A stretch of DNA of 64,000 bases from sequence record MF402939; one strand, written 5' to 3'. The DNA comes from Escherichia phage OSYSP. This document shows positions 18,054 through 61,357 of the stretch, in pieces; the first letter of the stretch is position 1; every line of letters begins with the position of its first letter. Below the pieces are notes generated by a model that saw only the letters and a list, made by a program, of their open reading frames with translations, was not told where the DNA came from and ran no database searches. The position numbers and the translations under genes are program-made.

Positions 18054-19872
18054 GACACTAAAATTTAGTAACGTTATGTCTTACGGTAAGGACATCGTAA
18101 TTCATTTCGATAAGAATCCAGTTACTCAACTAATCGGTGGCAATGGGCTAGGGAAATCTACTATCGCCACGGTTATAGAAGAGCTGTTCTATAATAAGAA
18201 CTCACGTGGTATTAAGAAAGATGCTCTGTTCTCTTGGTCTTCTCCGAAAAAAGAGTATGATATGCACGCTTACTTCTCAAAAGATGAAGATGAGTATGAA
18301 TTGCATAAAGTAGTTAAATCAACTGCTAAGGTTACACTCATTAAGAATGGAGAAGATATTAGTGGGCATACGGCAACCCAAACATATAAGATGATTGAAG
18401 AAATTATGGGGGGTGACTTTCAAACATTCACCAAACTGATTTATCAATCAGTGGGTTCTAATCTAGACTTCCTAAAAGCAACAGATGCAACACGTAAGGC
18501 TTTTCTTGTTAACTTGTTCAATCAAGAGCAATACAAAGAAATGTCAGAAACTATTAAGGCTGACCGTAAAGAAATAGCAAATACCTTAAATAATTTGCAG
18601 GGCCAGATGGCTGTAATTACGAAAATCCTTAATGGAAAAAATAATCTAGGAACTTTGCAGGAACCTGTAGAGGTGCCGGAGTTTGATGAAGAGCCATTAG
18701 CACAAGAACTTACTGAATCGAAAATTAAGGCGGCATTAGCCAAGTCTCAAGAGGCTAATATTACTAAGTTGCGTAATTTGGACAAAGCTGTACAAGTTGC
18801 CGAACAATCTTTCGAACCTTTCAAAAATTTGCCCGCGCCCACCGACCAAAGTGAAGAGATCTCGAGTGTTACGCGTGACCTAACGATTGTGACCTCACGT
18901 GCGAGCGAAGTTAAGAAACGTTATCAGAAGTTCAAGCAAGAGGCTTCAAATACTGAATGCCCTACTTGCGGTACTCATCTGGATACAACTGCTGCCCAAA
19001 AAGCAATGGATATGGCTAGAACAGAATATGATCCTCTGTTCAAAGAGAAGCAATCTCTTGAAGCTAAGCTAGAACAGTTGAAGAAAGAACAACTTGAGTA
19101 CGTTGCGTATACTAGAGCAAAGGATGCTTTGGATAAAGCGGTGGTAGCTAGAGACGAGTTCAAAAATTCAATGAGTGATGCTTCTTTTGAAGAACTCAAT
19201 GTGCAAATCCTACAGGTGCAAATCCGACAATTAGAACAGGAAATCGCTGATGGCCGCTCTAAGGTTGCAATTGCCAAAGAGCATAATGCAAATGTCGAAT
19301 TAGCCAACGCAAAATATAAAGCGAAACTAGAACAGATTGAGAAAGCTGAAGCAGAAATGTCTGAGATTACTTCCAAACTTGATGGAGTAGCCGAAGCTGT
19401 AGCTGATCTTGATATTCTAATTGCTGCTTTGAAAAATCTGGTGGGATATAAACTAGAGCATAGTGTGAAAGTATTCGAAGAATTAATTAATAAATACCTT
19501 TCTATTATGACTGGAGGTAAATTCGCACTTGGATTTGAACTTGATGAAACGAAGTTACAAGTAGTAATCTTCAATGATGGAAATCGTACCAGTATGGAGA
19601 ACTGCTCTACTGGTCAGCAAAGTAGAATTAATCTAGCAACCCTGTTAGCTATTCGTATGCTGTTAACATCTATTAGTAAAGTTAATATTAATCTTCTATT
19701 CCTTGATGAAGTAATTAGCTTTATTGATACGAAAGGACTTGATACTCTCGTTGAACTATTAAATGAGGAAGAAAGTCTAAATTCTATCATTGTTTCTCAT
19801 GGGCATACGCATCCATTAGCTCATAAGATTACTGTCAAAAAAGATGCAGAAGGATTTTCCTACTTAGAATAA
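18034..19872 (+). CDS. SbcC/Rad50-like ATPase
   Basis: Walker A GGNGLGKST, coiled-coil middle with CPTCG zinc hook, C-terminal ABC signature/D-loop (LLFLDEV). Confidence 0.85.
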   Translation: MSKITIKTLKFSNVMSYGKDIVIHFDKNPVTQLIGGNGLGKSTIATVIEELFYNKNSRGIKKDALFSWSSPKKEYDMHAYFSKDEDEYELHKVVKSTAKVTLIKNGEDISGHTATQTYKMIEEIMGGDFQTFTKLIYQSVGSNLDFLKATDATRKAFLVNLFNQEQYKEMSETIKADRKEIANTLNNLQGQMAVITKILNGKNNLGTLQEPVEVPEFDEEPLAQELTESKIKAALAKSQEANITKLRNLDKAVQVAEQSFEPFKNLPAPTDQSEEISSVTRDLTIVTSRASEVKKRYQKFKQEASNTECPTCGTHLDTTAAQKAMDMARTEYDPLFKEKQSLEAKLEQLKKEQLEYVAYTRAKDALDKAVVARDEFKNSMSDASFEELNVQILQVQIRQLEQEIADGRSKVAIAKEHNANVELANAKYKAKLEQIEKAEAEMSEITSKLDGVAEAVADLDILIAALKNLVGYKLEHSVKVFEELINKYLSIMTGGKFALGFELDETKLQVVIFNDGNRTSMENCSTGQQSRINLATLLAIRMLLTSISKVNINLLFLDEVISFIDTKGLDTLVELLNEEESLNSIIVSHGHTHPLAHKITVKKDAEGFSYLE

Positions 19873-45278: not shown

Positions 45279-45760
45279 TACTTCTTACCTCCAGTAGCTA
45301 GGGAAGTAATTAAGTCCATGTAGTTTTGATCCCCAGCTCCAGCAATAATATTATTCTGGATGTTGGTCTGATTGGCTGGAGTACGGGCTGCTGCCTTCAC
45401 TTTCTCCAGTTCTACCATCATTTTCATTTCTTCCATCTTCATCTTGTGTGCCTTCCAGAGAATGTTCATAATATCCTGGTCAGAACCCATGCCGGTTTCT
45501 TCTAGTTCCTCCAGCTTACGCTTGATAACTTCATCCAGAACACCAAATAAACGATCCCTATTACGGAAACCACTCTCCATAAAAATATCATTTAAGTAGT
45601 TCTTAACTTCACTACGATTCATAATATCTCGGAAAGCAATTTCTGACATTCCAAGACTACGTGCGGCAGAAGGCACATCGCTGCCACACTGTAAATAAGC
45701 TTCAATCACATCCATCCCCTCAGGGGACATAAGATCTGGTACTAATACATCATTTGCCAT
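45278..45760 (-). CDS. Terminase small subunit (160 aa)
   Basis: Position immediately upstream of and coupled to the large subunit gene. Confidence 0.6.
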
Positions 45761-48751: not shown

Positions 48752-48854
48752 TTTGACTTTTGCCAATTTCTTTGGATTACGTACGCGTGGGTGTGTCCAG
48801 TGGCCCCCCAGATGAGAATGAGTCTCATTACCGCCTGGTACTTAGCAGGCTAAT

Positions 48855-48887
48855 AGTCCCGGCATGTTATCATTACACACCGGGACT
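48855..48887. other. Stem-loop (AGTCCCGG ... CCGGGACT) next to the ATGAGAATGAGTCTCAT and TTAGCAGGCTAA motifs
   Basis: Inverted repeat read from the sequence. Confidence 0.4.
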
Positions 48888-48903
48888 ATTTCAACTTTAA
48901 TTA

Positions 48904-49680
48904 CTACGCAACTTTTAATTTCTCAATATATTGTTGCGGGCTGCAACTATATTCTGCGCGTTCTTCTTCGGTCATACCTTCCCAACATAATTGCAGGCGG
49001 TCGGCTAGGAACTGATAATCATTATCATCCTCAAGAGATTCATCGATAAAGGTTTCACCTATCAATGTAACCCCAATCGATAGAATATCGTTAACGGCTT
49101 GTGCGTCCAGCGTTTTAAATCCGTATGATGCCGCCGCTGATAGCACGCCTTTATGATCATCAATCATCGTGAAATCAGCGTTCGGATATAATTGTTTAAA
49201 TAACTCAAAGTAATGGCTTTTATAAATAGCGTCTTTGCTGTGGTATATTTCGCTAACTTTATCAGCCTCAAAATATTTGTGTAGTGTATCGCGGGAAAAT
49301 ACACGGATATTACTATCCCCACGCCCTCGCAATCCTTGTTTACGCAAATAATAATAATCCGACTTGCTCATCAGTCGAGCGGTGCAAATAATGTTTAATG
49401 TATTTGCGTCATTCATGCACTGGCGCATATATGTAACAAGGGGCAATAAAGTATCTTGCATTATTAAATCATGTTTGCAGGCTTCATTTTTATACTTATT
49501 TAAATCTAAATTGCCCTCGCTATCAAAGCAAGGCGCTACACGATGGAAAGAATTAATGATAGTGCCGTCCAGATCCCAAATCATGACGCGGGAAATATGC
49601 GGGAAATTACGGGTAATATTCATTTTAACTTGATTCATTTTGTTACGTTCTCCATTAAAGGGATTTAGTTTATCCAGCAT
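48904..49680 (-). CDS. dmp: HAD-family 5'-deoxyribonucleotidase (Dmp-like); true start possibly at 49638
   Basis: HAD motif I (IWDLDGTI); position next to the A1-like gene. Confidence 0.6.
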   Translation of the reverse strand: MLDKLNPFNGERNKMNQVKMNITRNFPHISRVMIWDLDGTIINSFHRVAPCFDSEGNLDLNKYKNEACKHDLIMQDTLLPLVTYMRQCMNDANTLNIICTARLMSKSDYYYLRKQGLRGRGDSNIRVFSRDTLHKYFEADKVSEIYHSKDAIYKSHYFELFKQLYPNADFTMIDDHKGVLSAAASYGFKTLDAQAVNDILSIGVTLIGETFIDESLEDDNDYQFLADRLQLCWEGMTEEERAEYSCSPQQYIEKLKVA

Positions 49681-49718
49681 TGCCCGCTATTTATCAGCGG
49701 GCAATAATAAATCAACTA

Positions 49719-50111
49719 TTAAAGACCATAAGCCAACGCATCAGCGATAAAACTAATATCTTCACCTGATACGCTGGAACGAATCCCCGCACAAGTATAT
49801 ACTTTTGCGCTGATCAATTGATCATCGAGGCAAGCGGGGCAAGGCGCGACAACTGCAAAGGCTAGGCCGGATTTTACGGCGTCGATGATAATCGTTTCTT
49901 GTTTCACAGTATCAACATAAACACCTTTTGCTTTAATATGGCTGGTTAGTTTACCTTGCATATATGCAAAGGTAGTAACCTGCAAAGCGTCATTAAAATC
50001 TAATAGGTCATCAATAACGTGCCCCGCCTCGACGTGGTAACGTTCACCATTAGAATAAACCAGAACAATTGAGGACTGAGCGCGATCGAATGGAATATTT
50101 TGCTTTTTCAT
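49719..50111 (-). CDS. Hypothetical pre-early protein (130 aa)
   Basis: ORF track. Confidence 0.5.
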   Translation of the reverse strand: MKKQNIPFDRAQSSIVLVYSNGERYHVEAGHVIDDLLDFNDALQVTTFAYMQGKLTSHIKAKGVYVDTVKQETIIIDAVKSGLAFAVVAPCPACLDDQLISAKVYTCAGIRSSVSGEDISFIADALAYGL

Positions 50112-50149
50112 ATTTATAAAACTCCAATTAGTTTAATAATGGATTTAAT

Positions 50150-50407
50150 TTATTTGATAATAATCTGCATCTGGTACGGCGTTAATTCACCGTTTACGGG
50201 TAAATTATTATCGCTCAGCCACTCATAAAAAGCGTCATCGTCATCAAAAGGAACAATATCGTTATCACGGGAATCGACGGAAATAATACCATCCGTATTA
50301 GTTTTGGCGGCTAGGATAGGCCCGAAGCTGTAAACTTTATCAGATTCCATTTCATCCGGTGAAATGAATACTTTTTCGTCTAATGTTTTGGGAAGAGTAA
50401 CTTTCAT
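50150..50407 (-). CDS. Small strongly acidic protein (85 aa); DNA-mimic / anti-defence candidate
   Basis: Large excess of Asp/Glu over Lys/Arg, including a DDDD run. Confidence 0.45.
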   Translation of the reverse strand: MKVTLPKTLDEKVFISPDEMESDKVYSFGPILAAKTNTDGIISVDSRDNDIVPFDDDDAFYEWLSDNNLPVNGELTPYQMQIIIK

Positions 50408-50462
50408 TTAATTTAGCTCCTATAATAGCGGCTATATTTCAAGCCGCTAGGGTATTAATTAT

Positions 50463-52127
50463 TTACGCGAAAAATTTACCGTTTTTAAAGTCGATCAAAG
50501 TGCGCTGACCGTTTGCATAGGTAATAACATGCGTTTGCGTCCAGCTTGACGCGCCAACGTTGTAACCCATGTCCAGACTACCAGCTACGCCAGCGGTATA
50601 TACCCCGCCGTAAATGCTTGCCGTATGAGTATGCCCCGTGTTTAATTTGCCCAATTTCTTAAACTGTTTAGGATTGCCACGGCTGCCGTTAATGCCATTG
50701 TGACCGTGTACGCCGCACTCGATGCCTGCAATTTTAAATGATTGGTCAGTTGTTAGGAAAATGGCGTTAAATTCACAACCTGCAACCTTACGCAGCGCAT
50801 AATCAAGCACGTTGAAAGTATCGTCATGATCACCGATTGCCGCGTAAATTGCAGCATTTAGGCGGTGATATAGTTCCGCGTTTGCGGGATCGTCTTTAAT
50901 GTTAGCATTACGATCATCAAGCCAACGGGATAGCGCTAAATCGTGGTTTGATTCCACGATGATTGTTTGAGAAAAATCGCGCTCCATTGACTCCAGCACG
51001 CGCCCCGTATCGATGAGATCATCCAGAACCTTATCACGTCCGGCGGCGTATTGTTTTGCTAGGAATACACCCGAAGCGCGGTTGTGATGGTTGCGGGATG
51101 TAAAATCATGCACGTCATGAATAAACTGATATTTAGGCTTGAGAATATCAAGCAAGCTATTTTCGCCAGCCCATGACGCAACGGCGCAATCGTCATCTAA
51201 TTTTTCGGCGTGAATATCGCCATATTGCAAGCCTAAAACATGCCCCGATGTTTCATAACATCCGGCGGGAGTGGCGCAAATATTCAAATCGTAAAACACG
51301 CCGCTTTCGTCCATCGTTTCAAGCTGGCGAACAAAAAATTCTCCGTCTTCGTCAAACTCAACAACAAGCGCACCGAAATTATGCAGCGCCTCGGCCTTTT
51401 GTCCTGCTTTCTGCTGGATGTAATTTTTTAGGGTTGCCGTTCCAGTTGAATACATACGACGCACTACTTCACCTTTTAAAGCTGGCACGCTTTCGGCGGT
51501 AATTTTAGCGTGACCAATTGCCAGACCTTCCAGATTAAGCGCCGTTGCAGTTTCAGCGAATCCAGAAAGCGGATAATCTGCGGTTGGCAAAACGTTAATT
51601 TCAGCCATGAAAGCAAAACGGCGGTTATTTAAAAACACGTTTTTATTGCAGATATATTTGTCAAATGCGGAATCATATTTTATTCCTTCTGCACCCTCGC
51701 CATTTTGAAAACCGTTTTTGTTATAAATAAACTTGCTAACCAGCAAATCAGCGCCGATATATTTAGCAAATTGCTCCAGTGAGGCTAAAAAGTTTTTATG
51801 CGGGAAAGTATTATTCTGAATCGACGTAATAATAAAGCGTTTACCCTGCTTTACTTCCCATTGCTCAACCGTGCTAGAAACAATCCCCGCCGCTTCTGGA
51901 CGCTCATCGTTTTTAATGGCTTTTGCTACTTTCGCCGCTTTCGGTTTAGCTGGTTTATTTGCTTCCAACCAGTCGCAGATAGCGGTCGAGTGTTTTGTTG
52001 TATCGTAGACCGCTTTTGATATATCGTCGCAGACCTCCAGTTTAGTAGCGCGCAGACGTTTACCATAGAAATTAAAGTCAGCGGCCATTTTCAGGATAAC
52101 GGTTTGTTTTTCTGCGGAAATAATCAT
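50463..52127 (-). CDS. A1: A1-like pre-early protein with metallophosphoesterase domain (554 aa)
   Basis: Phosphoesterase motifs (GDIH, SNHD, GHNG, GHTH) in the C-terminal half; size close to T5 A1; adjacent to the A2-like and dmp-like genes. Confidence 0.65.
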   Translation of the reverse strand: MIISAEKQTVILKMAADFNFYGKRLRATKLEVCDDISKAVYDTTKHSTAICDWLEANKPAKPKAAKVAKAIKNDERPEAAGIVSSTVEQWEVKQGKRFIITSIQNNTFPHKNFLASLEQFAKYIGADLLVSKFIYNKNGFQNGEGAEGIKYDSAFDKYICNKNVFLNNRRFAFMAEINVLPTADYPLSGFAETATALNLEGLAIGHAKITAESVPALKGEVVRRMYSTGTATLKNYIQQKAGQKAEALHNFGALVVEFDEDGEFFVRQLETMDESGVFYDLNICATPAGCYETSGHVLGLQYGDIHAEKLDDDCAVASWAGENSLLDILKPKYQFIHDVHDFTSRNHHNRASGVFLAKQYAAGRDKVLDDLIDTGRVLESMERDFSQTIIVESNHDLALSRWLDDRNANIKDDPANAELYHRLNAAIYAAIGDHDDTFNVLDYALRKVAGCEFNAIFLTTDQSFKIAGIECGVHGHNGINGSRGNPKQFKKLGKLNTGHTHTASIYGGVYTAGVAGSLDMGYNVGASSWTQTHVITYANGQRTLIDFKNGKFFA

Positions 52128-52223
52128 ATTAATAAAACTCCATTAAAGGGATTAAAAACGTTTGTTATTGGCAAATATTGCCAAATATAACGCCTTGAAT
52201 AATAGGCGTTATAATTTGCAACA

Positions 52224-52421
52224 TTAATTTAAAGGCATAAGGCTAGAACTAACACCACAAGCAACGGCGGCAATAAAACAAATCAGACCTAAACGCTTTG
52301 CCAATTTAGACTTACGTTTAAAATAATATGAGTCTAAATCATTTTGAAAATAAGCGAATAATAACGAGGCCGCCATAATAAATAAGCCTAGAATGAGGGA
52401 TTCAGTAGGGTAAAAGATCAT
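52224..52421 (-). CDS. Small two-helix membrane protein (65 aa)
   Basis: ORF track; two hydrophobic segments. Confidence 0.4.
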   Translation of the reverse strand: MIFYPTESLILGLFIMAASLLFAYFQNDLDSYYFKRKSKLAKRLGLICFIAAVACGVSSSLMPLN

Positions 52422-52477
52422 TTTAAAACTCCAGTCAAAGGGAAATTATAGTGGGGAATATTCCCCACTAATTAAAT

Positions 52478-52885
52478 TTATTCGCCTGCGGCTTGTTTTA
52501 CTTCATCGGCAACGCCTAACAGTTGCGCCACGGCGTCCAGTGTTTCAAGTTTTGCACTTTCCAGACTTGCCAGATCATCGGCGTCTTTGATAATGCCGGA
52601 ATCAATAGCATGTTTAGCGATAACGCGTACATAGTGAGCTTTGCGGATTGAGCTACCGCCGCCAACTTTGCGCGGCTTATCGCTTTTCTGATACGCTTTC
52701 GCGCTGGTCAATTTTGACCGAACGGATACGGGAGAAGCCGCGCCCACTGCTTTTGCAATCTCTTTTAAACCGTAGCTATTTGCGAAATCTAAACCGTTTT
52801 CATTGATTAACTGCTGATACATGGAAACGGCTTTTTGGGTGTTTTCTTCATTCCAAGCAAATTTTGCGGTTTTAACGTTAGTCAT
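52478..52885 (-). CDS. A2: A2-like pre-early DNA-binding protein (135 aa)
   Basis: Size and position next to the A1-like gene; basic segment. Confidence 0.5.
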   Translation of the reverse strand: MTNVKTAKFAWNEENTQKAVSMYQQLINENGLDFANSYGLKEIAKAVGAASPVSVRSKLTSAKAYQKSDKPRKVGGGSSIRKAHYVRVIAKHAIDSGIIKDADDLASLESAKLETLDAVAQLLGVADEVKQAAGE

Positions 52886-52983
52886 GGTAAAAACTCCTAT
52901 TAGTTTAATTTAAGGGATAAGATTAACATAGTGTTAATCATTATATTCCCCATATTTCAGAGGAATATAAAGTTAACACTAAA

Positions 52984-53235
52984 TTATAACACAGCTTCCC
53001 ATTTTTCGTTACGCTGTACAACCTTTACAACGTCGCCGGATTTAACGCGAACGCTAAAAACGGTTTTGCCGTTGTTACTACGTTCATTTTCAGCGTATAC
53101 CGCGTCGATTGTATCAAACGGCATAAGCGCCGCACCTTTAATACGTTCGGCTTTTCCGGTTAGTTCATCCGTTTTAGTAACGAAAGGAATAAAAACGGAT
53201 TGACCAATTTTAGGCGCGGTAATAACGTTTTTCAT
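52984..53235 (-). CDS. Hypothetical pre-early protein (83 aa)
   Basis: ORF track. Confidence 0.45.
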   Translation of the reverse strand: MKNVITAPKIGQSVFIPFVTKTDELTGKAERIKGAALMPFDTIDAVYAENERSNNGKTVFSVRVKSGDVVKVVQRNEKWEAVL

Positions 53236-53462
53236 AATATAAACTCCTAGTTATTTGGGGATTGTTCCGCATTACCTGCTAGAAAGTAGCAGGTAATAAG
53301 CAACAATCCGCTCACCGCTATAATCAATTTAAAGAACTCCATGCAGGCCGCTATATCCCAGTTAGGGGGCGGGACACATTATGGTAAGTGCCGACCGTCA
53401 GATTTTATCAAGTTATCGCTCTTATCGAACTGAGTACATCTTAAAGCCTATCGGCTAGGTTG

Positions 53463-53666
53463 TCAAACAATTTTTTGCAGTTTTTTATAATTCTCTTTCA
53501 AGTCAATCATAATATTTCGCCAGATCATTTCTAAACCTTGCTGGCGGCCTTTCTTGTACTGCGTGAATCGGTATTTTACCGATCTTTGCGCTACTGTCAA
53601 CAAATTTTTTGTTTTGCTGTCCAGTGCCTTGCTAGGTTTACCAGTGATCAATAAAGTTTGTTTCAT
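53463..53666 (-). CDS. Small basic protein (67 aa), possibly DNA-binding
   Basis: ORF track; Lys/Arg-rich. Confidence 0.4.
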   Translation of the reverse strand: MKQTLLITGKPSKALDSKTKNLLTVAQRSVKYRFTQYKKGRQQGLEMIWRNIMIDLKENYKKLQKIV

Positions 53667-54091
53667 ATCTGCGATTCCTTATAATGTATAAGTTTACCGC
53701 CGATAGACTTTAAGATGTACCCAATTTTTAAAGAGCGCGGCGGTAAACTTCCCGCCGTGTAGTTCGTCATTGCCGCCCTACGAGATAAATAATAAGGGAT
53801 TCACAAAAATGGCGCAACCTTATTTTTGTAAAGAAACGTAAAGACAAATGCCACCGGACACCGTGCGGCGACCTGGGCGCGACGCACTAAAATTAAAAGA
53901 AACGGGCGCGCGAATACCACAAAACATAGCAGATAGGCAAGTAATTTTTTCATTTATATTTGCTTTGCCCTACTTGACAAAATCTAAAAAACTCGTGGTA
54001 GCGATAAACGAGGGTAGGCAATGCAATGGCATGGCTAAAAACTTCATCGCGTTCTAGGGCGTTTTAGGCGCATTCTAGCCTTGTTGATAAC

Positions 54092-54534
54092 TTATCCCCA
54101 GAAGCAAAAATGAAATTTTCCTAGTTATCCACTTGACTTTTATTTTCCAGTGGATAACTACTTATTTTATAAAATAAATTAATTGACTTTTATTTGTTAG
54201 TATGCGTCGGAAAGATAGCAGACTAATAATTGCTAGGATGATAATCATGCTGGTGGATTGTAACGGCTTAAATTATTAGCAGACTATTAATCACGGAAAA
54301 TCTCATTAGCCAACTAACTATTTCATGATATATAATATACTTATAAATTAAGGAGAAATAATAATTATAAGAAATAATAGCTACAGTAAATATTAACTAT
54401 AAGAAACTATCGGCCTAAGTGAGAACCACTATCATTTAAGTTATCCACAACGTTATCCACAGCACAAAATGATTTGACATAATAGGCGGTGATATAAGGA
54501 CTTTTACACAGACTTATCCACAGCTTATCCTACT
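54092..54534. promoter_or_regulatory. DnaA-box cluster in the divergent intergenic region (perfect TTATCCACA at 54441, 54453, 54514; variants at 54092, 54125, 54150 inverted, 54526)
   Basis: Direct match to the 9-mer DnaA box consensus. Confidence 0.7.
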
Positions 54535-54549
54535 GTATAAATATACAAG
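54508..54549 (+). repeat. Left arm of a 42-bp inverted repeat (ACAGACTTATCCACAG..TATCCTACTGTATAAATATACA), with DnaA box and -10-like TATAAAT
   Basis: Reverse complement of 58209-58250, identical except 2 central bases (hand-aligned). Confidence 0.8.
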
Positions 54550-54815
54550 GTAAAAAGGTAGTGTTAACAACTGCAATCAATTTTAAGCGGCCTAAAACGC
54601 TTTCTAACGAGCTAAATGCGGTGGGGTAATATTAAAGTAAAGTCTTCACCCGTCGCCCTGGTGGCTTCACTGTGTTTTGCTCTTTATTGCACCGCTGCGC
54701 GGTTAGCATAAAACTAGGCGCTAGGCAAGGAAAATAAAAAGGTAAAATAATATTTGCCCCTAGAAAGAAAATACCTTTATCATTCACTCACCGATTAACG
54801 AGGGAGGCCGAACAA

Positions 54816-55808
54816 ATGAGGCTTTATAAACCAGATAACGCAACCGTCTTAAAAGGTGCATTGCGCAACCTGCTGGATGGTAGCAGAACAACCAGCATTA
54901 AACATTTTGTTTTCAATATTGAAACACTTCATCGTAATTTTCTTGATGATTACGATGCTTATAATATGAATAGTTTTCTACCGTTATATAATCAAGGGGC
55001 AACGCTTGTTTTATATAATCAGGAATCTCACTTGCTTACTAGTCGAGGGCCAGATACTGATTTTATTATAGTGAAAGGCAGTACAGTAAAAGCCTATGAT
55101 GCGGGGGCGGGCTTAGAAGTTTTCACGATAGAAAATTATGAGCCTTATGATAAGGATCTTTATGACGTAGAAAATTTTCTCGATTCATTTTGGCGTTATT
55201 TATCAATTGGGTGGAATCGATCAGATTATCACGGGTATCGTTTTGCGGCTATAATGGCTTTTGATGATAACGGTAATTTTTTGCTACCGTCGGAATTATA
55301 CCCGTATGTATATAATGATTTAATAGAGGAGGCTGGTTTTACTTTCTGGAAAGATGAAGATCAGCCTATTGACAACACGGAAAAACATGCTGTAAATTCT
55401 AACACTCAAAGCGTTAACACTCAAACTACTGAAAATAAAGGGAAAAATACTATGACCAAGATCGCTAACATCGTTGCCGCTAATAAATCCGCTGTTGTAA
55501 ACGCTGCAAAACTGGAAGCGGGTAAAATTGCACTGACTCAAATCACGAAAGTAGCGGCTAAAAAACCGCCGTTTATTATCAAGGGTTATATTGATACGCC
55601 GATTGGTCGGGTAGTGATTGCCAACCTGCTGAGTGTAGCGGTTGACCAGTACGCCCCGAGTAACCAGAAAGCGAAAGCGGTAGCAGGAGCGGCTATGGAA
55701 GCGGCAATGCTAGAAATGGTGCAAAGTTTTAACATCGCTGAAATGATCGATGAAATGGTAAAAGGTATCGATATTTCTACTTTCACCGTTAACAACGAAA
55801 GCGAGTAA
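54816..55808 (+). CDS. Hypothetical pre-early protein (330 aa)
   Basis: ORF track; GGAGG Shine-Dalgarno upstream. Confidence 0.6.
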   Translation: MRLYKPDNATVLKGALRNLLDGSRTTSIKHFVFNIETLHRNFLDDYDAYNMNSFLPLYNQGATLVLYNQESHLLTSRGPDTDFIIVKGSTVKAYDAGAGLEVFTIENYEPYDKDLYDVENFLDSFWRYLSIGWNRSDYHGYRFAAIMAFDDNGNFLLPSELYPYVYNDLIEEAGFTFWKDEDQPIDNTEKHAVNSNTQSVNTQTTENKGKNTMTKIANIVAANKSAVVNAAKLEAGKIALTQITKVAAKKPPFIIKGYIDTPIGRVVIANLLSVAVDQYAPSNQKAKAVAGAAMEAAMLEMVQSFNIAEMIDEMVKGIDISTFTVNNESE

Positions 55809-55872
55809 TAATATTAAGCGGGGATTGTTACCCCGCTTTAATGTTCCCTTGTTAATTAATAGGAGGCTAATT

Positions 55873-56367
55873 ATGTCAGAAGAAAAATATGGCTTCTCAC
55901 TGGGAGAAGTGAGCACGGCTAAACACGATATGATCATTTTGGTCGATTGTCATACTGGCTATTGCGGAGAAGGCTGGACGGAGGAACATTTTGTTCCAGC
56001 TGGCTGTAATCTGGACGCTTTCGCTCAGGAAATGGCTGTTGATAATGCTTCTCGTTTCGGTAGCGATGGCTATGAAGACGAGGAAACTGGCGAATGGTAT
56101 GAAAATGAAAACGTATACGCTAGTCTTTATCATTATCAATTAAGTAAATCCGGCGCATATGTAAACGGCGGCGATCCTATTAATTCCATCATGAGATTAA
56201 TTATTAAACATGGTGGCGTCGAGATAATTGATAACAAAGCGGTAATATACGCAAACCGATTAAAACAGCTTGTTTATATTCCTGATAATACCCGATGGGA
56301 TGAATATGCTGTTTTGCATGACGAATTGAAACGATGTTTCAATATTGAATCCTTACAAGTAGTCTAA
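55873..56367 (+). CDS. Hypothetical acidic protein (about 164 aa, start at MSEEKYG)
   Basis: AGGAGG Shine-Dalgarno 6 nt before ATG at 55873. Confidence 0.55.
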   Translation: MSEEKYGFSLGEVSTAKHDMIILVDCHTGYCGEGWTEEHFVPAGCNLDAFAQEMAVDNASRFGSDGYEDEETGEWYENENVYASLYHYQLSKSGAYVNGGDPINSIMRLIIKHGGVEIIDNKAVIYANRLKQLVYIPDNTRWDEYAVLHDELKRCFNIESLQVV

Positions 56368-56472
56368 TGTAAAGTTTTGTAAAGGTCGCCTTTTATGGTG
56401 GCCTTTTTTGTTATAATGCTTTTACACCAAAACGGTGGATTGAAAATTTTCCCAAAAATTTGGAGGCTTAAA

Positions 56473-56703
56473 ATGGTTGCATACTCTTCTGCTAGTCATC
56501 TGTTTACCGCGCAAGGCTGGGTATCTAATCGCGTCATCATTCATGAAATGGTGCAGGAGTTCGGCATTGCTAAAACTTACACTACCATTCAGGAACTATA
56601 CAACGCCGATAAAATCGATCAGCAAACGGCTGGCTTTTTGCTGGATACCCTGAAGGCGGAACATTGCACCAAAAAACAAGCCGCTAAAATTGTTTTAATG
56701 TAA
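56473..56703 (+). CDS. Hypothetical protein (about 76 aa, start at MVAYSS)
   Basis: GGAGG Shine-Dalgarno before ATG at 56473. Confidence 0.5.
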   Translation: MVAYSSASHLFTAQGWVSNRVIIHEMVQEFGIAKTYTTIQELYNADKIDQQTAGFLLDTLKAEHCTKKQAAKIVLM

Positions 56704-56749
56704 TTAATAACGGGGCGTTATTTTCGCCCCGCTAACTAGGAGAATGAAA

Positions 56750-56899
56750 ATGGTTATTTTTCGAGCTATTCTGGCAGGTATCTTGGGCGCTATTTTATCG
56801 TTGTTTGCAATAGCTTTCGGTGTTCACGCCGTTATTGTCGGCGCGGGTATCGCCGTTTTTTCTTATCTGCTGGGCTGCATGATTAGTAAAGGAGAATAA
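56750..56899 (+). CDS. Unannotated hydrophobic micro-protein (49 aa, MVIFRAILAGILGAILSLFAIAFGVHAVIVGAGIAVFSYLLGCMISKGE)
   Basis: Hand translation; AGGAG Shine-Dalgarno; stop lies 2 nt before the next ATG. Confidence 0.5.
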   Translation: MVIFRAILAGILGAILSLFAIAFGVHAVIVGAGIAVFSYLLGCMISKGE

Positions 56900-56901
56900 A
56901 A

Positions 56902-57114
56902 ATGATCCGCAACGTTTCTCTTGCTCGTTCGAAAGGCTTTAAGCTGGTGGACGTTAACACGTTCGAGCGTGAAGATTGTAAAATCGAATATGTAGCGCGG
57001 AATAAAAACGCCTTTCGTGTTACCGAGAAAAAATTCGATAAGCGCGGCAACGTGGTCGCTGAAACGGTTAAACATTTTGCCACCTTTTACGCTGCGTTTC
57101 GTGGGGTACTATGA
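56902..57114 (+). CDS. Hypothetical basic protein (70 aa)
   Basis: ORF track. Confidence 0.5.
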   Translation: MIRNVSLARSKGFKLVDVNTFEREDCKIEYVARNKNAFRVTEKKFDKRGNVVAETVKHFATFYAAFRGVL

Positions 57115-57236
57115 AAAGCGTTATCATTATTAGCCTTGCAATGGTTGGCGGTTTTACCGCCACCTTATTTAAAAATGATCCCCTTTTACTGGGGATTTTT
57201 ATGCTTTTATCTGGCTATCTGATTGGGAGGTTATAA
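57111..57236 (+). CDS. Unannotated hydrophobic micro-protein (41 aa, MKSVIIISLAMVGGFTATLFKNDPLLLGIFMLLSGYLIGRL)
   Basis: Hand translation; ATGA start/stop overlap with the upstream gene. Confidence 0.5.
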   Translation: MKSVIIISLAMVGGFTATLFKNDPLLLGIFMLLSGYLIGRL

Positions 57237-57237
57237 A

Positions 57238-57582
57238 ATGGTAATTTATGAAGGCAATCGTTTTGTTGCTAATTGCCGTCCTGCATTGCTAGCAAATTAC
57301 TTAAATCAGCTTTCACCAGCTTATAAGGGCGTTATTAATATTTATGAGGGCAAAGTGCATTATAAGGTTAATGCGGTCGTTGCCCGTGAACTAGCGTTTC
57401 AATTTTTGACCTTTGCATCTTGTGACGTTCAGGTTATGGGTGAGGCGTTAATTGCAGAAAATGAAGATGATTTTATTAACATTTTTCGCAAGATATGCAC
57501 CGAGCGCCTGATCATGAAAGGCGCTTATATTCAATCCACTGCGGATAGTATTGAAACAGCGTTTCGAAAGGTGGCGCAATGA
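57238..57582 (+). CDS. Hypothetical protein (about 114 aa, start at MVIYEG)
   Basis: GGGAGG Shine-Dalgarno before ATG at 57238. Confidence 0.5.
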   Translation: MVIYEGNRFVANCRPALLANYLNQLSPAYKGVINIYEGKVHYKVNAVVARELAFQFLTFASCDVQVMGEALIAENEDDFINIFRKICTERLIMKGAYIQSTADSIETAFRKVAQ

Positions 57583-57737
57583 AAAAGTTTTTAATAGCTG
57601 GCATGTTTCCGTTGTTGCCTTATGTAATTTGCTGGGCTTTATATGCTCATGGTGCTAGTGTTCCCGGTGTGGCTTCATTTGGTGTATCGGCGGGCTTTCT
57701 AGCTGGACTATTGGCAAGCGTATATTTACGCAAATAA
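57579..57737 (+). CDS. Unannotated hydrophobic micro-protein (52 aa, MKKFLIAGMFPLLPYVICWALYAHGASVPGVASFGVSAGFLAGLLASVYLRK)
   Basis: Hand translation; ATGA overlap with the upstream gene. Confidence 0.5.
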   Translation: MKKFLIAGMFPLLPYVICWALYAHGASVPGVASFGVSAGFLAGLLASVYLRK

Positions 57738-57756
57738 TTAATAACGGAGCGTTATT

Positions 57757-57951
57757 ATGAGCAATAAAATTGTTGTAACCAAAATCAGTACAATGGTTGA
57801 TGTTTTTTACGTGCCCGATACGCCGGAGAATCGGCGAGCGGTCGAGCGTGGCGAGTATGATAAAGTGATTTATGATCACGATGGTTACTATCAACATTTG
57901 GTGGATTCCTACGGGGAGGAGGAAAAAATCACGCATCGACTACCAGACTAA
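57757..57951 (+). CDS. Small acidic protein (64 aa)
   Basis: ORF track. Confidence 0.5.
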   Translation: MSNKIVVTKISTMVDVFYVPDTPENRRAVERGEYDKVIYDHDGYYQHLVDSYGEEEKITHRLPD

Positions 57952-57992
57952 TAATCACGGGGCGCAACTACCAGGGAGTGCCCCCAATTCTC

Positions 57993-58087
57993 AAATGAGA
58001 ATCATTCTCATTTGACTGCGCCCGCGATGGTTAGCCTGCTAATGATTAGGGTGTTACGTGTCGCCTTGTGTGATCGTTAGCAGGCTA
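57993..58087. repeat. Palindromic elements: AAATGAGAATCATTCTCATTT and a 12-bp inverted pair TTAGCCTGCTAA / TTAGCAGGCTAA
   Basis: Read from the sequence; related motifs occur at 48812-48853. Confidence 0.7.
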
Positions 58088-58208
58088 ACTAATTTTTAAG
58101 CCTCCTCCAATTTTGCCCTTGTTTTAGTACCCCCACCAAAATTAAACGCGTTAGAATGCGATCTAGGACGTTTTAGCGGTATACTAGAATTATTCACTAC
58201 ATAGGAAT

Positions 58209-58250
58209 ACTGTATATTTATACAGTAGGATATCCTGTGGATAAGTCTGT
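58209..58250 (-). repeat. Right arm of the 42-bp inverted repeat (reverse orientation), includes DnaA box TGTGGATAA at 58236; a second box at 58309
   Basis: Hand-computed reverse complement matches 54508-54549. Confidence 0.8.
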
Positions 58251-58334
58251 TAATAACGCCTCAAAATGGCTAGGATTCTGTCAAATCAAATCGTGCTGTT
58301 AATAAGTCTGTGGATAACTTAAATAACAGTGTTT

Positions 58335-58510
58335 CTCACTTCCATTCTTAAATGAGAATCATTATCATTCGCAGTCCACTGTCTAACCGATAATCATTTC
58401 CTTTCTTAAATGAGAATCATTTCACTTTTTGAATAGTTCTCATTTCCTTTCTTAAATGAGAATAATTATCATTCGCATTCCACTTCTTAAATGATAATGA
58501 TTCTCATTCA
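58335..58510. repeat. Cluster of at least 4 copies of TTCTTAAATGAGAAT(C/A)ATT in direct and inverted orientation
   Basis: Read from the sequence. Confidence 0.75.
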
Positions 58511-58515
58511 AAGTC

Positions 58516-58533
58516 GCAGGGCAATTGCCCTGC
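58516..58533. repeat. Perfect 18-bp palindrome GCAGGGCAATTGCCCTGC
   Basis: Self-complementary by inspection. Confidence 0.85.
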
Positions 58534-58538
58534 GCTTT

Positions 58539-59141
58539 TGTGCAAATCCGACATTGCTCCACGGGTGTTACGTGCGGGCATGTATGTGCGAATCCGACAA
58601 TTTTTGGTAGTGTGCGAATCCGACCCTAAAAACTTTTGTGATGTGCGAATCCAACAATGAATTTTCCCAAAAACTCCAGCAATCACGAACTGCGTTCGAA
58701 TCCTGTGGGATATGTGCAAATCCGACACGGTTTTTCTAGGATTAAGATGTGCAAATCCGACAAGATTTTTGTGACTTCGATGAGAGGGTGTGTGATTGTA
58801 TAGGTTTGAGGAGAAGATGAGAGAGCGAGAAAAGTTTGGGAGGCTAGAAGGATGCGGGCGCAGGATTGGTGCGGAGCACCTGATTTGCGGGGATTTTGGG
58901 GAAGAGTTGAGATAATTTGGGAAGATTTGAGATAGGTGCAGAAAAAGTAAAATTTTATTAGCAAAATGGGGCAAAATAGCTTGACAAGTGAAAATTTCTG
59001 TGGCTCTAAAAACTCAGGCAATCATGGGCCTTCGGCCCGAAATAATGCTGCCATTTTCAAGAGATTATATGTTCCTAAAAACTTAGGCGTTTGTGCAAAT
59101 CCGACCATAAATTTCTAGGAACACAATGTACAAATCCGACA
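58539..59141 (+). repeat. Iteron-like array: 8 same-orientation copies of 15-bp TGTGC(G/A)AATCCGAC(A/C) at 58539, 58585, 58611, 58642, 58713, 58748, 59092, 59127
   Basis: Direct repeats located by hand; copy 4 carries CCAACA and copy 8 TGTACA variants. Confidence 0.8.
58790..58945. repeat. Purine-rich (G/A) strand-asymmetric tract with short GAGATA / TTGGG repeats
   Basis: Read from the sequence. Confidence 0.6.
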
Positions 59142-59169
59142 GTAATTTCTGGAAATGTGTTTTCAAAAA

Positions 59170-59240
59170 ATGTCTCCTAGAAATAACCGCCCTCCCTATA
59201 ACCGCCCTGTATTAACCGCCCTGTATTAACCGCCTATTGC
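59170..59240. repeat. Short tandem repeats (A/T)TAACCGCC(CT), 4 copies, flanked by TTCTAGGAA / TTCCTAGAA inverted motifs
   Basis: Read from the sequence. Confidence 0.65.
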
Positions 59241-59662
59241 TAGAGTTTCTAGGAATATGAAAACCGCCTGAGTTGACTAGAGAAACAGATTTAAAGTTTA
59301 ATGTAAACTCTAGAGTTAGTGCTCAACTATTCCTAGAAACTTAGGAGTCTAGAAGAAAGTGTTGTGCCATCCTAGCAGATGAGCGGCAACAGGTGTATCA
59401 TCTTGAACACAAATATTGCCTTTAAATATTTTTAGTTATTTAAAAGTAAATATACCCCCATTTCATGAGAGCTTACTCGTGGGGCGCGTGAGTATTACGG
59501 AAGACTTAGTAATTAGATCTATACTCGTGCTGTCGCAACGTATAGACGTAATACTAAGTGTAATAATCATCGCCCCTAGAGTTCAAAACAAGAGTTGTTT
59601 TTAATCTATGAGATTATTATAACATGTGCCGCAATGAGTTGTCAAGAAGATTTTGTTAATGT

Positions 59663-60019
59663 TTATACATCTCCTTCGAAATTGGTATTGGGATCGTAAA
59701 TCTTTTTGGCTCCTGTATTTAATAGGAATCGTTCTGCAAGTTGTGGGTGAATATCAAAGAACTCTGTACATCCTTCGAATCCCTTTAAATTACAGCGGTA
59801 TTTCTTAAAGTAGATATGAGCAGCGGCTTCTAGATCTCTAGGGTTATGGGTTTCATAGATTCCATACACATATAAATCGTCAAAACCTCGATAGACTATC
59901 TTATCTAAGTTTAGAGTTTGAATCCTATTATGTGGATTCATGCTAATACCGATCTTTGTTCTCTTAGGGATCTTTGTCAGATCCCTGTTCGCAAGAATAT
60001 ATACTTTATATAGTGACAT
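59663..60019 (-). CDS. T5orf172 / GIY-YIG-like domain protein (118 aa)
   Basis: Pattern VYILAN ... KIGIS.NP..R resembles the T5orf172 (GIY-YIG superfamily) signature. Confidence 0.45.
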   Translation of the reverse strand: MSLYKVYILANRDLTKIPKRTKIGISMNPHNRIQTLNLDKIVYRGFDDLYVYGIYETHNPRDLEAAAHIYFKKYRCNLKGFEGCTEFFDIHPQLAERFLLNTGAKKIYDPNTNFEGDV

Positions 60020-60737: not shown

Positions 60738-61357
60738 TAATTACCTCTCTTATCTTCATTAATGACAGCTCCCAACGCTTCCATAATTGCATCTTCTAAA
60801 CTTCCATGTTTACTAGGATTATTAAAATGAATAGTACAAACAGAACCCCTAGAAACTCCAGCATCCGCAGGTGCTACGCTTCGCATATCAGATTCAAAAG
60901 CTTCTTGGGTATGTTGCAACTGTACAGAAGGGCCGTAATCTTCACCAAACTTATATGACTTCGTACTACTTACCACACCCCCACAAGGAACATTGTGCAT
61001 ATCCGACATTAATCTTTTATCGGAGTTATTCAGCATTGAGATTGTCCCTGACTGCCATGGATCTCTAATAGTCACTGGAGTACTAGGGCGGTTCACCTCA
61101 GTCTTCACAAGTTTGTACCCTGCATCGATTAGTGCATTAATCAGGTTATCCGCCGGGATGCGAGCCGTACCAAAAATCTTACGAGCGTTGTTGAGCCTAC
61201 CTTCAAAATCTTTACATGCTTTAATATTAGTGTGTGCAAAGGTTAGCTTCATAGATTTGAACTGTACAGTGGCAGTTAAATCTTTAAAGCTATAATCCCA
61301 CGTATTCAGTTCATGATCTGGTACTACTTGAATAGATTGTTGTGCATATAAAGTCAT
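60737..61357 (-). CDS. Hypothetical early protein (206 aa)
   Basis: ORF track. Confidence 0.55.
   Translation of the reverse strand: MTLYAQQSIQVVPDHELNTWDYSFKDLTATVQFKSMKLTFAHTNIKACKDFEGRLNNARKIFGTARIPADNLINALIDAGYKLVKTEVNRPSTPVTIRDPWQSGTISMLNNSDKRLMSDMHNVPCGGVVSSTKSYKFGEDYGPSVQLQHTQEAFESDMRSVAPADAGVSRGSVCTIHFNNPSKHGSLEDAIMEALGAVINEDKRGN

What the first reader, a model, noticed from the sequence alone, without database searches (positions are those of the whole stretch)
58539..59141. Eight-copy iteron-like array TGTGC(G/A)AATCCGAC(A/C) beside an 18-bp perfect palindrome
Eight same-orientation copies of a 15-bp motif lie in non-coding DNA with irregular spacing (about 26-71 bp, then a roughly 345-bp gap before the last two). 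They are preceded by the perfect palindrome GCAGGGCAATTGCCCTGC (58516-58533). This resembles iterons at replication origins or a protein-binding array. In T5-like phages the inner end of the first-step-transfer DNA carries a repeat-rich injection stop signal, so this array is a strong candidate for that element or for an origin.
Basis: partly seen in the sequence, partly recalled or inferred. Interest (0 to 1): 0.75.

Follow-up and report, generated by a model that had tools for sequence, protein, structure and literature searches.

The report
T5 "direct repeat D" array
The eight-copy 15-bp array is real, but it is the already-annotated "direct repeat D" of phage T5's injection-stop region; it brackets the inner end of the long terminal repeat in T5-like phages, and what it does is still untested.

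Summary
Eight same-strand copies of TGTGCRAATCCGACM lie at the stated coordinates, and chance would give about 0.14. The perfect palindrome is at 58516-58533.

The feature is not new. The window is a T5-like phage. GenBank AY587007 (T5) annotates the same motif as "direct repeat D" copies 1-12. It annotates the palindrome as "palindrome J", which carries the 7.9% major nick. AY543070 labels the region "injection stop signal". The window's three extra copies (19200, 19215, 60994) match T5 copies 11, 12 and 10.

- The core GTGC-N5-CGAY and the whole layout are conserved in every genus examined, including one Vibrio phage.
- All copies point the same way.
- The array forms two clusters on either side of the mapped right end of the terminal repeat (window 59006|59007).

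Function has never been tested. My preferred reading is a binding array that marks the terminase cut at the repeat boundary (about 0.35). The rivals are a part of the injection stop or restart signal (about 0.25) and an iteron origin (about 0.12).

One test of a link to the UL9-like helicase D2 came out negative. This is a known feature with an open mechanism.

The parts
48793..59006 (+). Collapsed copy of the long direct terminal repeat (DTR). The left boundary is approximate; the right boundary is placed by homology.
   Evidence: BLAST of the T5 left junction places T5 position 1 at about window 48793. The right end ...TTGACAAGTGAAAATTTCTGTGGCTC|TAAAAACTC aligns base-for-base with the LTR ends of T5, BF23 (PhageTerm) and Sw2 (PhageTerm).
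58236..58317 (+). Pair of consensus DnaA boxes (TGTGGATAA at 58236-58244 and 58309-58317), each next to a TGTTAATAA variant box. These correspond to T5 IRD'-spacer-IRC'.
   Evidence: Read from the sequence and repeat D8. Described for T5-like phages in bioRxiv 10.1101/866236. Present with the same 61-bp spacing in Sugarland, KEY and Vibrio phage JSF12.
58336..58511 (+). AT-rich direct and inverted repeats (TTCTTAAATGAGAATCATT family), corresponding to T5 direct repeats C/E and palindromes E-I.
   Evidence: the repeat finder families D1, D4 and I1-I8; T5 annotation.
58516..58533 (.). Perfect 18-bp palindrome, corresponding to T5 'palindrome J'. On the + strand it looks like an intrinsic terminator.
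   Evidence: The terminator-like site is 58515-58534 followed by CTTTTGTG. HdH2 annotates a terminator at the same place. T5 annotation.
58528..58535 (+). CCCTGCGC, the octamer annotated in T5 as major single-strand nick 1 (7.9%). It is the only copy in the window and ends 3 nt before DRD copy 1.
   Evidence: T5 nick features are CCCTGCGC three times and CCCGCGC once; window scan.
58539..58762 (+). DRD left cluster, copies 1-6 (58539-58553, 58585-58599, 58611-58625, 58642-58656, 58713-58727, 58748-58762). It lies inside the terminal repeat.
   Evidence: One-to-one with T5 'direct repeat D copy 1-6'. The conserved logo is (t)aTGTGCAAATCCGAYa followed by a weak T-tract.
58935..59006 (+). Most deeply conserved block (GGGGCAAAATAGCTTGACAAGTGAAAA...; TTGACA at 58981-58986). 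It ends at the DTR right end, 20 nt after TTGACA.
   Evidence: This is the only part of the region that blastn still aligns in Klebsiella Sugarland-type phages and Erwinia KEY. The physical ends of T5, BF23, Sw2 and the My1-like contig map 20-22 nt after the TTGACA.
59092..59141 (+). DRD right cluster, copies 7-8 (59092-59106, 59127-59141). It starts 86 bp outside the terminal repeat. T5's copy 9 is absent here.
   Evidence: Offsets of +86 and +121 from the DTR end are identical in T5, BF23 and Sw2.
19200..19229 (+). Tandem DRD pair inside D13/exo2 (SbcC-like), corresponding to T5 DRD copies 11-12.
   Evidence: Conserved in 28 close relatives, but not beyond what coding constraint explains. 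Eos and KEY also carry DRD-like copies in D13; Sugarland does not.
60994..61008 (+). Single DRD copy (1 mismatch), antisense to an early gene, corresponding to T5 DRD copy 10 in ORF019.
   Evidence: A copy about 1.8 kb right of copy 8 recurs in most Tequintavirus loci.

Best explanation
Identity (near certain). This is the window's copy of the 'direct repeat D' (DRD) array of T5-like phages (family Demerecviridae). It sits in the roughly 1.7-kb non-coding 'Repeat Region 3 / injection-stop region' at the junction between the left terminal repeat and the early genes. The palindrome is T5 palindrome J. It is a terminator-like hairpin at the end of the rightward pre-early operon, and its right arm is the recognition octamer of the 7.9% major nick.

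Mechanism (inferred, not shown). Each DRD is a non-palindromic site for one conserved sequence-specific DNA-binding protein. The sites form two same-orientation clusters that bracket the exact position where the terminal repeat ends. I think the array most likely marks that boundary for the packaging machinery. In this model the small terminase (the 160-aa protein T5 calls SciB, window 45278-45760) coats both clusters on replicated concatemeric DNA. That positions the large terminase to cut 20 nt after the conserved TTGACA block. This would resemble the repeated boxes that flank the cut in P1 pac, SPP1 pacL/pacR and lambda cosB (comparison from my own knowledge). After the cut, the left cluster ends up in both terminal repeats and the right cluster stays single-copy.
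For: Identity: the motif, order, spacing and flanks match the annotated T5 features one-to-one, and 516 phage records carry the region.

Binding-site nature: T5 has 12 strong sites and then a large score gap, all on one strand. The core is kept at near-full identity while flanks, spacing and copy number change in Sugarlandvirus, Erwinia KEY, a My1-like phage and IME260. A variant core, GTGCAAAACCGAY / GTGCTAATTCGAT, is kept in Vibrio phage JSF12.

Boundary link: the DTR ends of T5, BF23 (PhageTerm) and Sw2 (PhageTerm) fall at the same aligned base. Left-cluster copies start 258-467 bp left of the end (Epseptimavirus has an extra copy starting 190-195 bp left), and right-cluster copies start 86, 121 and (in some) 258 bp right of it. 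The My1-like contig end and the IME260 repeat end also fall between the clusters.

A small terminase exists and is conserved family-wide: PHROG 3802, E=3e-90, 51-56% identical in other enterobacterial genera and 45% in JSF12.
Against: No binding or genetic data exist for any candidate protein. The left end of the terminal repeat has no DRD, so DRD cannot be the only terminase signal. The copies in D13 and ORF019 have no role in a packaging model. The small terminase diverges to about 50% identity while the motif stays identical, and A2 and D2 are conserved across the family just as well, so co-conservation does not pick out the terminase. The distance from the cut to the nearest cluster (86-365 bp) is long compared with known pac sites. 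The direction of T5 packaging is uncertain: last-in-first-out would make this the start site, but PMC3517423 states that the left end is packed first.
Confidence: 0.35

Rival explanations
1. DRD is a working part of the injection stop or restart signal. As the left end enters the cell, a host protein or a pre-early protein (A2 is a DNA-binding protein; A1/A2 are required for second-step transfer) binds the same-orientation sites. This forms a block at the envelope, or it is the handle by which A1/A2 restart transfer.
For: The array lies at about 7.9-8.3% of the genome inside the stretch that AY543070 labels iss. All copies share the orientation of DNA entry. A1 and A2 are conserved wherever DRD is found. 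[quoted passage not shown]
Against: The shear-point estimate (9618) is left of copy 1 (9672). The most detailed published model places the stop at the DnaA-box repeats and gives DRD no role. Two to six copies lie beyond the terminal repeat, about 0.6-0.8 kb past the estimated stop. The D13 and ORF019 copies are unexplained. Two-step transfer has not, to my knowledge, been shown for the Klebsiella, Erwinia or Vibrio relatives that keep the array.
Confidence: 0.25
2. The region is an iteron-type replication origin. DnaA boxes and AT-rich repeats would provide unwinding, and the DRDs would be iterons for a phage initiator, for example the UL9-like helicase D2. The D13 and ORF019 copies would be minor origins.
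For: The layout is textbook: DnaA boxes, then AT-rich repeats, then same-orientation direct repeats. T5 D2 has been proposed as an initiator, and T5 has multiple internal origins of undefined sequence (PMC3632103). The D2 model's best solved-structure matches are HSV-1 UL9 (E about 1e-14). The reverse complement of the G-variant DRD contains TTCGCAC, the core of UL9 Box I GCGTTCGCACTTCGT. D2 is 74-80% identical in the genera that share the identical motif and 44% identical in JSF12, where the motif differs.
Against: The D2-UL9 similarity covers the helicase core only. The isolated D2 C-terminal domain (model pLDDT 88) has no significant structural match, and the UL9 origin-binding CTD/SAP domain was not found. 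The locus is where transcription converges and where cumulative GC skew has a local maximum; the minimum is near 53 kb. Published electron microscopy places origins near the centre of the molecule (as cited). No initiator gene is adjacent. Spacing (26-81 bp) is not helically phased. The array is cut in two by the genome end.
Confidence: 0.12
3. DRDs are weak DnaA boxes or sites for another conserved host protein. They would extend the DnaA-box cluster proposed by Davison.
For: The reverse complement ATTTGCACA matches the DnaA consensus TT(A/T)TNCACA (quoted) at 8 of 9 positions. The JSF12 variant TTTTGCAC(Y) also matches 8 of 9 (my comparison). True DnaA boxes lie 220-300 bp to the left in every genus examined.
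Against: The most invariant part of DRD (TCCGA) lies outside the 9-mer, and the common G variant has two mismatches. Spacing is unlike DnaA arrays in oriC. No data support it.
Confidence: 0.08
4. DRDs cooperate with the nearby single-strand nick sites. They might hold a protein next to the nick's 3'-OH, to prime strand-displacement copying of the terminal repeat or to direct the nickase.
For: Nick 1 ends 3 nt before DRD copy 1, and the CCTGCGC-DRD1 juxtaposition is kept in Sugarland, IME260 and KEY. Nick 4 (64.7%) lies 368 bp left of the D13 DRD pair. So 2 of the 3 DRD loci sit within 400 bp to the right of a major nick. The genes affecting nicking (sciA, sciB) are late genes (PMC3517423), and SciB is the small terminase.
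Against: Nicks 2 and 3 have no DRD-like site nearby. Viable mutants lacking the nicks have been isolated (PMC3517423). The nick-4 motif sits in the conserved peptide NLPAPT, so its conservation is explained by coding. The My1-like phage has no GCGC before copy 1.
Confidence: 0.08

Closest known systems
Phage T5 'direct repeat D' copies 1-12, with palindrome J and major nick 1 (GenBank AY587007; Repeat Region 3 of Davison, bioRxiv 10.1101/866236)
   Same: Same 15-mer, same strand, same order and nearly the same spacing (T5: 46, 26, 31, 81, 25, 344, 35). Same flanks (nick octamer, DnaA-box repeats, DRA repeats, TTGACA block, DTR end). Same three outlying copies in ORF019 and exo2/D13.
   Different: The window lacks T5's copy 9. 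Copies 4 and 8 each carry one substitution. A 10-bp shift changes two spacings (71/35 instead of 81/25). The palindrome is a perfect 18-mer instead of T5's 17-mer.
T5 injection stop signal (iss) region (misc_feature 9140-10149 in AY543070; described in 1987)
   Same: Copies 1-6 fall inside the homologous stretch. The region is non-coding, rich in repeats and palindromes, and strongly conserved.
   Different: iss is defined by function (where transfer pauses), and no element within it has been shown to be responsible. Copies 7-8 lie outside the annotated iss and outside the terminal repeat.
Terminase recognition sites built from short repeats flanking the cut: P1 pac hexamers, SPP1 pacL/pacR boxes, lambda cosB R sites (my own knowledge)
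   Same: Clusters of a short non-palindromic motif lie on both sides of a precise terminase cut, and a small-terminase gene is present.
   Different: The clusters lie 86-470 bp from the cut, further than in those systems. All copies share one orientation. No binding data exist. The other genome end lacks the motif.
Iteron origins of plasmids and phages (pSC101, P1 oriR) and HSV-1 oriS Box I/UL9
   Same: DnaA boxes plus an AT-rich stretch plus same-orientation direct repeats. There is a 7-nt identity with the UL9 Box I core, and the phage encodes a UL9-like helicase.
   Different: No adjacent initiator gene, irregular spacing, and a convergent-transcription locus. The D2 C-terminal domain does not resemble the UL9 origin-binding domain.

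Membership tests
T5 direct repeat D (DRD) array | 15-bp unit TGTGC(A/G)AATCCGAC(A/C), all copies on the same strand | tested here: met
   identical consensus in the window and in T5. All copies are on the + strand in T5 and in all relatives.
T5 direct repeat D (DRD) array | Position: starts 3-4 nt after palindrome J and the nick-1 octamer, in the non-coding gap between the rightward pre-early genes and the leftward early genes | tested here: met
T5 direct repeat D (DRD) array | Six copies inside the terminal repeat, a gap of about 344 bp containing the repeat's end, then further copies | tested here: met
   Spacing compared. The boundary is placed by homology. The window's physical ends themselves cannot be measured here.
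Injection stop signal (functional element) | Cis-acting site at which DNA transfer pauses until A1/A2 are made | not testable with these tools
   This needs blender or shearing experiments, or sequencing of transferred DNA, on wild-type and DRD-mutant phage.
Injection stop signal (functional element) | Lies at or just left of the end of first-step-transfer DNA | tested here: inconclusive
   The estimate of 9618 in T5 is 54 bp left of copy 1, but the estimate (7.9% of the genome) is imprecise. Copies 7-9 are clearly beyond it.
Iteron-type replication origin | Same-orientation direct repeats next to DnaA boxes and an AT-rich stretch | tested here: met
Iteron-type replication origin | A cognate initiator with a matching DNA-binding domain (tested for D2 against UL9) | tested here: not met
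   Pfam and PDB sequence hits cover only the helicase core. The D2 C-terminal domain model has no significant fold match.
Iteron-type replication origin | Strand-composition or gene-orientation switch of the origin type | tested here: not met
   The cumulative GC-skew minimum is near 53 kb. This locus is a local maximum and a convergence point. The skew is confounded by transcription direction.
Terminase recognition (pac/cos-like) site | Immediately flanks a sequence-specific genome end | tested here: met
   The ends of T5, BF23 and Sw2 are at the same aligned base between the clusters. The My1-like contig and IME260 are consistent.
Terminase recognition (pac/cos-like) site | Bound by the small terminase and required for cutting or packaging | not testable with these tools
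   The small terminase is identified only by family match, and it has no solved relatives.
DnaA box | 9-mer TT(A/T)TNCACA | tested here: not met
   The DRD reverse complement is ATTTGCACA (8 of 9) or ATTCGCACA (7 of 9). The invariant TCCGA lies outside the box (consensus quoted).
Known RNA families (Rfam) | Match at the family's gathering score | tested here: not met
   Only three sub-threshold hits in 57800-59800.

The most novel reading that the evidence does not exclude
The DRD motif is the family-wide recognition element of a single conserved phage protein, most likely the small terminase SciB. On this reading the two clusters are the long-missing packaging signal that defines the right boundary of the 10-kb terminal repeat in Demerecviridae. 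The adjacent nick site and the D13 copies would belong to the same late-acting machinery. The 'injection stop region' would then be a composite of separable signals (terminator, nick, pac, DnaA-box stop) rather than one element.
Probability: 0.3. Interest if true: 0.6.

Novelty: already known. Interest (0 to 1): 0.3.

Why it matters
How T5 pauses DNA entry at 8% and how it builds its 10-kb terminal repeats are both old open questions, and this non-coding region is the only candidate cis element for either. The array itself is not a discovery. What the comparison adds is that the motif survives across genera down to a Vibrio phage, and that it brackets the physical genome end. This splits the region into separate, testable modules and points to three purifiable candidate binders: the small terminase, A2 and D2. 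It also carries a practical warning. Terminus-calling software can mistake the conserved nick for the repeat end, as appears to have happened in the Sugarland record.

Tried and rejected
1. UL9 link. The D2 helicase is the best structural match to HSV-1 UL9, and DRD shares 7 nt with UL9 Box I. But the D2 C-terminal domain modelled alone has no significant PDB match, so I found no evidence of a shared origin-binding domain.

2. DNA-level selection on the D13 tandem pair. In 28 close relatives the 30-nt window has 6 variable sites against a median of 8, ranking 181 of 571 windows. This is inconclusive.

3. Nick-4 motif conservation across genera. It looked striking, but the motif lies in the conserved peptide NLPAPT, so coding explains it.

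4. DRD near all nicks. A PWM scan finds nothing near nicks 2 and 3.

5. GC skew as an origin test. It follows transcription direction, so it is only weak evidence.

6. AACCGCC repeats as a signal shared with the left end. T5 has only one copy, at position 36, so I dropped this.

7. Rfam found no family.

8. MAFFT/RNAalifold on the candidate sRNA. The orthologues are too divergent to align.

9. Papers not held in the library: Davison 2015 (PMC4743489), Rhoades 1984, Johnston 1977. The original descriptions of DRD, sciB and packaging polarity could therefore not be read.

10. The first homologue search, with the D2 C-terminus alone, returned only 2 proteins.

Full report
**What is there.** Eight + strand copies of TGTGCRAATCCGACM start at 58539, 58585, 58611, 58642, 58713, 58748, 59092 and 59127. 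Six are exact and two have one mismatch. The window holds 11 matches with up to 2 mismatches, against 0.14 expected by shuffling. The perfect palindrome GCAGGGCAATTGCCCTGC occupies 58516-58533. The other three matches are a tandem pair at 19200-19229 and a single copy at 60994. Two - strand ORFs overlap the array mechanically, but neither T5 record annotates a gene there. Relatives also carry 10-bp indels within them.

**What genome this is.** The 1.7-kb stretch matches 446 phage records by megablast and 516 by blastn. Nearly all are Tequintavirus, Epseptimavirus or related Klebsiella phages, and the match usually sits at 9-10 kb from the left end. The window carries a collapsed copy of the long terminal repeat. 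The T5 left junction aligns at about 48793 and the right end at 59006. [quoted passage not shown]

**It is already annotated.**
- It lists 'palindrome J' at 9650-9666 and 'major single-stranded nick 1, 7.9%' at 9661-9668.
- It places the end of the left terminal repeat at 10139, between copies 6 and 7.
- It also lists copy 10 in ORF019 and copies 11-12 in exo2/D13, which are the window's three outlying sites.
- AY543070 labels the homologous 1-kb stretch 'injection stop signal (iss)'.
[quoted passage not shown] It notes that the region was first characterised in 1987. It favours the DnaA-box inverted repeats plus the DRE repeats, left of the about 9618 shear point, as the stop signal. It concedes that its model assigns no role to the other repeats.
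- A 2026 preprint still describes the stop signal only as a repeat-rich non-coding region.

In the full T5 genome the motif occurs only at the array (9 copies), at 12073, at 79019/79034, and in the six right-repeat duplicates. All are on the + strand. A weight-matrix scan gives 12 sites scoring 21-30 bits, and the next-best site scores 12.9. BF23 has the same six-plus-two arrangement. So the motif is essentially confined to this locus, and the locus is non-coding in relatives.

**The palindrome.** Its right arm plus GC forms CCCTGCGC (58528-58535). This is the octamer at three of T5's four distinct major nick sites, and it is the only copy in the window. The hairpin followed by CTTTTGTG also scores as an intrinsic terminator for the rightward pre-early transcripts, and HdH2 annotates one there. 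The palindrome therefore has two ordinary explanations that do not depend on the repeats.

**Comparative anatomy (the added result).**
- Among about 35 close relatives the spacing pattern is almost fixed. Motif columns are somewhat more conserved than the rest (95% vs 86% mean column identity; 72% vs 49% invariant columns).
- The stronger evidence comes from distant relatives, whose region is only 56-60% identical overall. Klebsiella phages Sugarland and IME260, Erwinia phage KEY and a My1-like Pectobacterium phage all keep the same motif at near-full identity. Spacing and copy number differ (5-6 copies on the left; 3-6 on the right).
- Vibrio phage JSF12, from another subfamily, has the same overall plan. 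In order it has two TGTGGATAA DnaA boxes 61 bp apart, a repeat block, GCGC palindromes, seven copies of (A/G)GTGCAAAACCGAY, a G-rich stretch, a TTGAC block, and three copies of AGTGCTAATTCGAT.
- The conserved core is thus GTGC-N5-CGAY, preceded by 'ta' and followed by a weak T-tract. Every copy in every genome points the same way.
- This is the signature of a protein-binding site under selection.

**Relation to the genome end.** The left-repeat ends of T5, BF23 (PhageTerm) and Sw2 (PhageTerm) fall at the same aligned base...TTGACAAGTGAAAATTyyTGTGGmTC|TAAAAACTC. Left-cluster copies start 258-467 bp left of the end, and right-cluster copies start 86, 121 and (in some) 258 bp right of it. Stitch is annotated 5 bp further right. 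The My1-like contig ends 22 nt after its TTGACA. The IME260 repeat ends at ...CCTGTGGCTC. The 78-bp block that ends at this cut is the only part of the region that blastn still aligns in Sugarland-type phages and KEY. So the array is better described as two clusters bracketing the terminal-repeat boundary than as one array beside the stop point. Sugarland's PhageTerm-called repeat end instead falls exactly after CCTGCGC, which is the nick site. This suggests the software called the nick.

**Who might bind it.** Three family-wide DNA-handling proteins are candidates.
- The 160-aa protein T5 calls SciB is a small terminase (PHROG 3802). It is 51-56% identical in other enterobacterial genera and 45% in JSF12.
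- A2 is a DNA-binding protein. It is 66% identical in Klebsiella phages, 47% in KEY and about 42% in Vibrio phages.
- D2 is a UL9-like helicase proposed as an initiator. It is 74-80% identical in other enterobacterial genera and 44% in JSF12.
- Co-occurrence does not discriminate between them.

I tested the D2 idea. A full-length model (pLDDT 87) has HSV-1 UL9 as its best solved match. The reverse complement of the G-variant DRD contains TTCGCAC, the core of UL9 Box I. But the sequence similarity is limited to the helicase core. The C-terminal domain modelled alone (pLDDT 88) matches nothing significantly, including the UL9 origin-binding domain. T5's cumulative GC skew has its minimum near 53 kb, and this locus is a convergence point.

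**Outlying copies.** The D13 pair encodes N-VQILQ-VQIRQ. It is conserved in close relatives, but no more than other parts of the gene. Phage Eos (49% protein identity in this stretch) has an exact TGTGCGAATCCGACA at the homologous codons plus a second copy 123 bp upstream. KEY (33% identity) has a tandem pair about 250 bp away from the homologous spot. Sugarland has none. This hints at DNA-level retention but does not prove it. T5's nick 4 lies 368 bp left of the pair, and nick 1 abuts copy 1. However, nicks 2 and 3 have no DRD, and the nick-4 motif is embedded in a conserved peptide.

**Verdict.**
- I favour a binding array that marks the repeat boundary for the terminase (0.35). This rests on geometry and on analogy with P1, SPP1 and lambda sites, which I recall from my own knowledge.
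- An injection stop or restart role (0.25) and an iteron origin (0.12) remain open. Weak DnaA or host-factor sites and nick-coupled roles are less likely.
- Packaging polarity, which bears on the favoured model, is uncertain. General last-in-first-out logic conflicts with a statement in PMC3517423.
- Novelty: already known. Interest is modest.

Noticed in passing
window 59440-59645, - strand: A perfect sigma-70 consensus promoter (TTGACA, 18 nt, TG-TATAAT; 59645 to 59616) fires leftward into the 'non-coding' gap. It is followed by a strongly structured transcript of about 170 nt (MFE -55.9, z = -6.8) and a terminator-like hairpin (59472-59454). The promoter is conserved at the same place in Sugarland, KEY, a My1-like phage and Stitch. 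The downstream sequences do not align, yet each folds into a long hairpin (z = -2.2 to -6.2). No Rfam family matches, and AY587007 does not annotate it. It is a candidate small RNA.
   Followed up: partly
window 19200-19229 and 60994-61008; L171 439 and 562; L170 296-324: DRD copies lie inside coding genes (D13/exo2 and the ORF019 homologue), always in the array's orientation. D13 of phage Eos has an exact DRD at the homologous codons even though the protein is only 49% identical there. KEY has a tandem pair elsewhere in D13, and Sugarland has none.
   Followed up: partly
L128 2723 (Klebsiella phage Sugarland MG459987.2, record position 10138): The repeat end 'predicted by PhageTerm' falls exactly after CCTGCGC, the conserved nick-site motif 4 nt before DRD copy 1. 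That is about 350 bp left of the position homologous to the T5, BF23 and Sw2 ends. The nick was probably called as a terminus.
   Followed up: partly
window 59185-59268: A second repeat family, (T)AACCGCC(CT), has five + strand copies just right of DRD copy 8. The same motif recurs at the same place in T5, Sugarland, IME260, KEY and the My1-like phage. ACCGCCCT occurs only once elsewhere in the window.
   Followed up: partly
window 58935-59038: The block GGGGCAAAATAGCTTGACAAGTGAAAA ends at the repeat boundary and is the most deeply conserved DNA in the region. A GC hairpin with a TTCG loop (GGGCCTTCGGCCC, 59026-59038) follows 20 nt after the boundary. Sw2 annotates it as a - strand terminator.
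   Followed up: partly
window 58236-58244 and 58309-58317; L176 (Vibrio phage JSF12) about 15120-15190: The pair of consensus DnaA boxes (TGTGGATAA), about 61-73 bp apart and preceded by the palindrome-containing stretch CTGTATATTTATACAG, is conserved as far as a Vibrio phage of another subfamily.
   Followed up: partly
L172 (Klebsiella phage IME260 KX845404.2, last 20 nt of the record): After ...CCTGTGGCTC, the right-repeat copy continues with 20 nt (GCTTAGAGGGTTGGGGGGTG) that match neither the left-repeat continuation nor the record's start. The annotated repeat probably overruns the true end.
   Followed up: no
window 18832-18838: The T5 nick-4 motif CCCGCGC lies in the codons for a conserved D13 peptide (NLPAPT). 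Sugarland, KEY and Eos keep CC(C/T)TGCGC-like DNA at the same spot, using the Ala codon GCG in all of them.
   Followed up: partly
window 827-3613 (D2 helicase): A high-confidence model (pLDDT 87) shows about 250 N-terminal residues of mixed alpha/beta fold, then a helical region before the helicase core, and a 220-residue all-helical C-terminal domain with no solved structural relative. HSV-1 UL9 is the best overall PDB match.
   Followed up: partly
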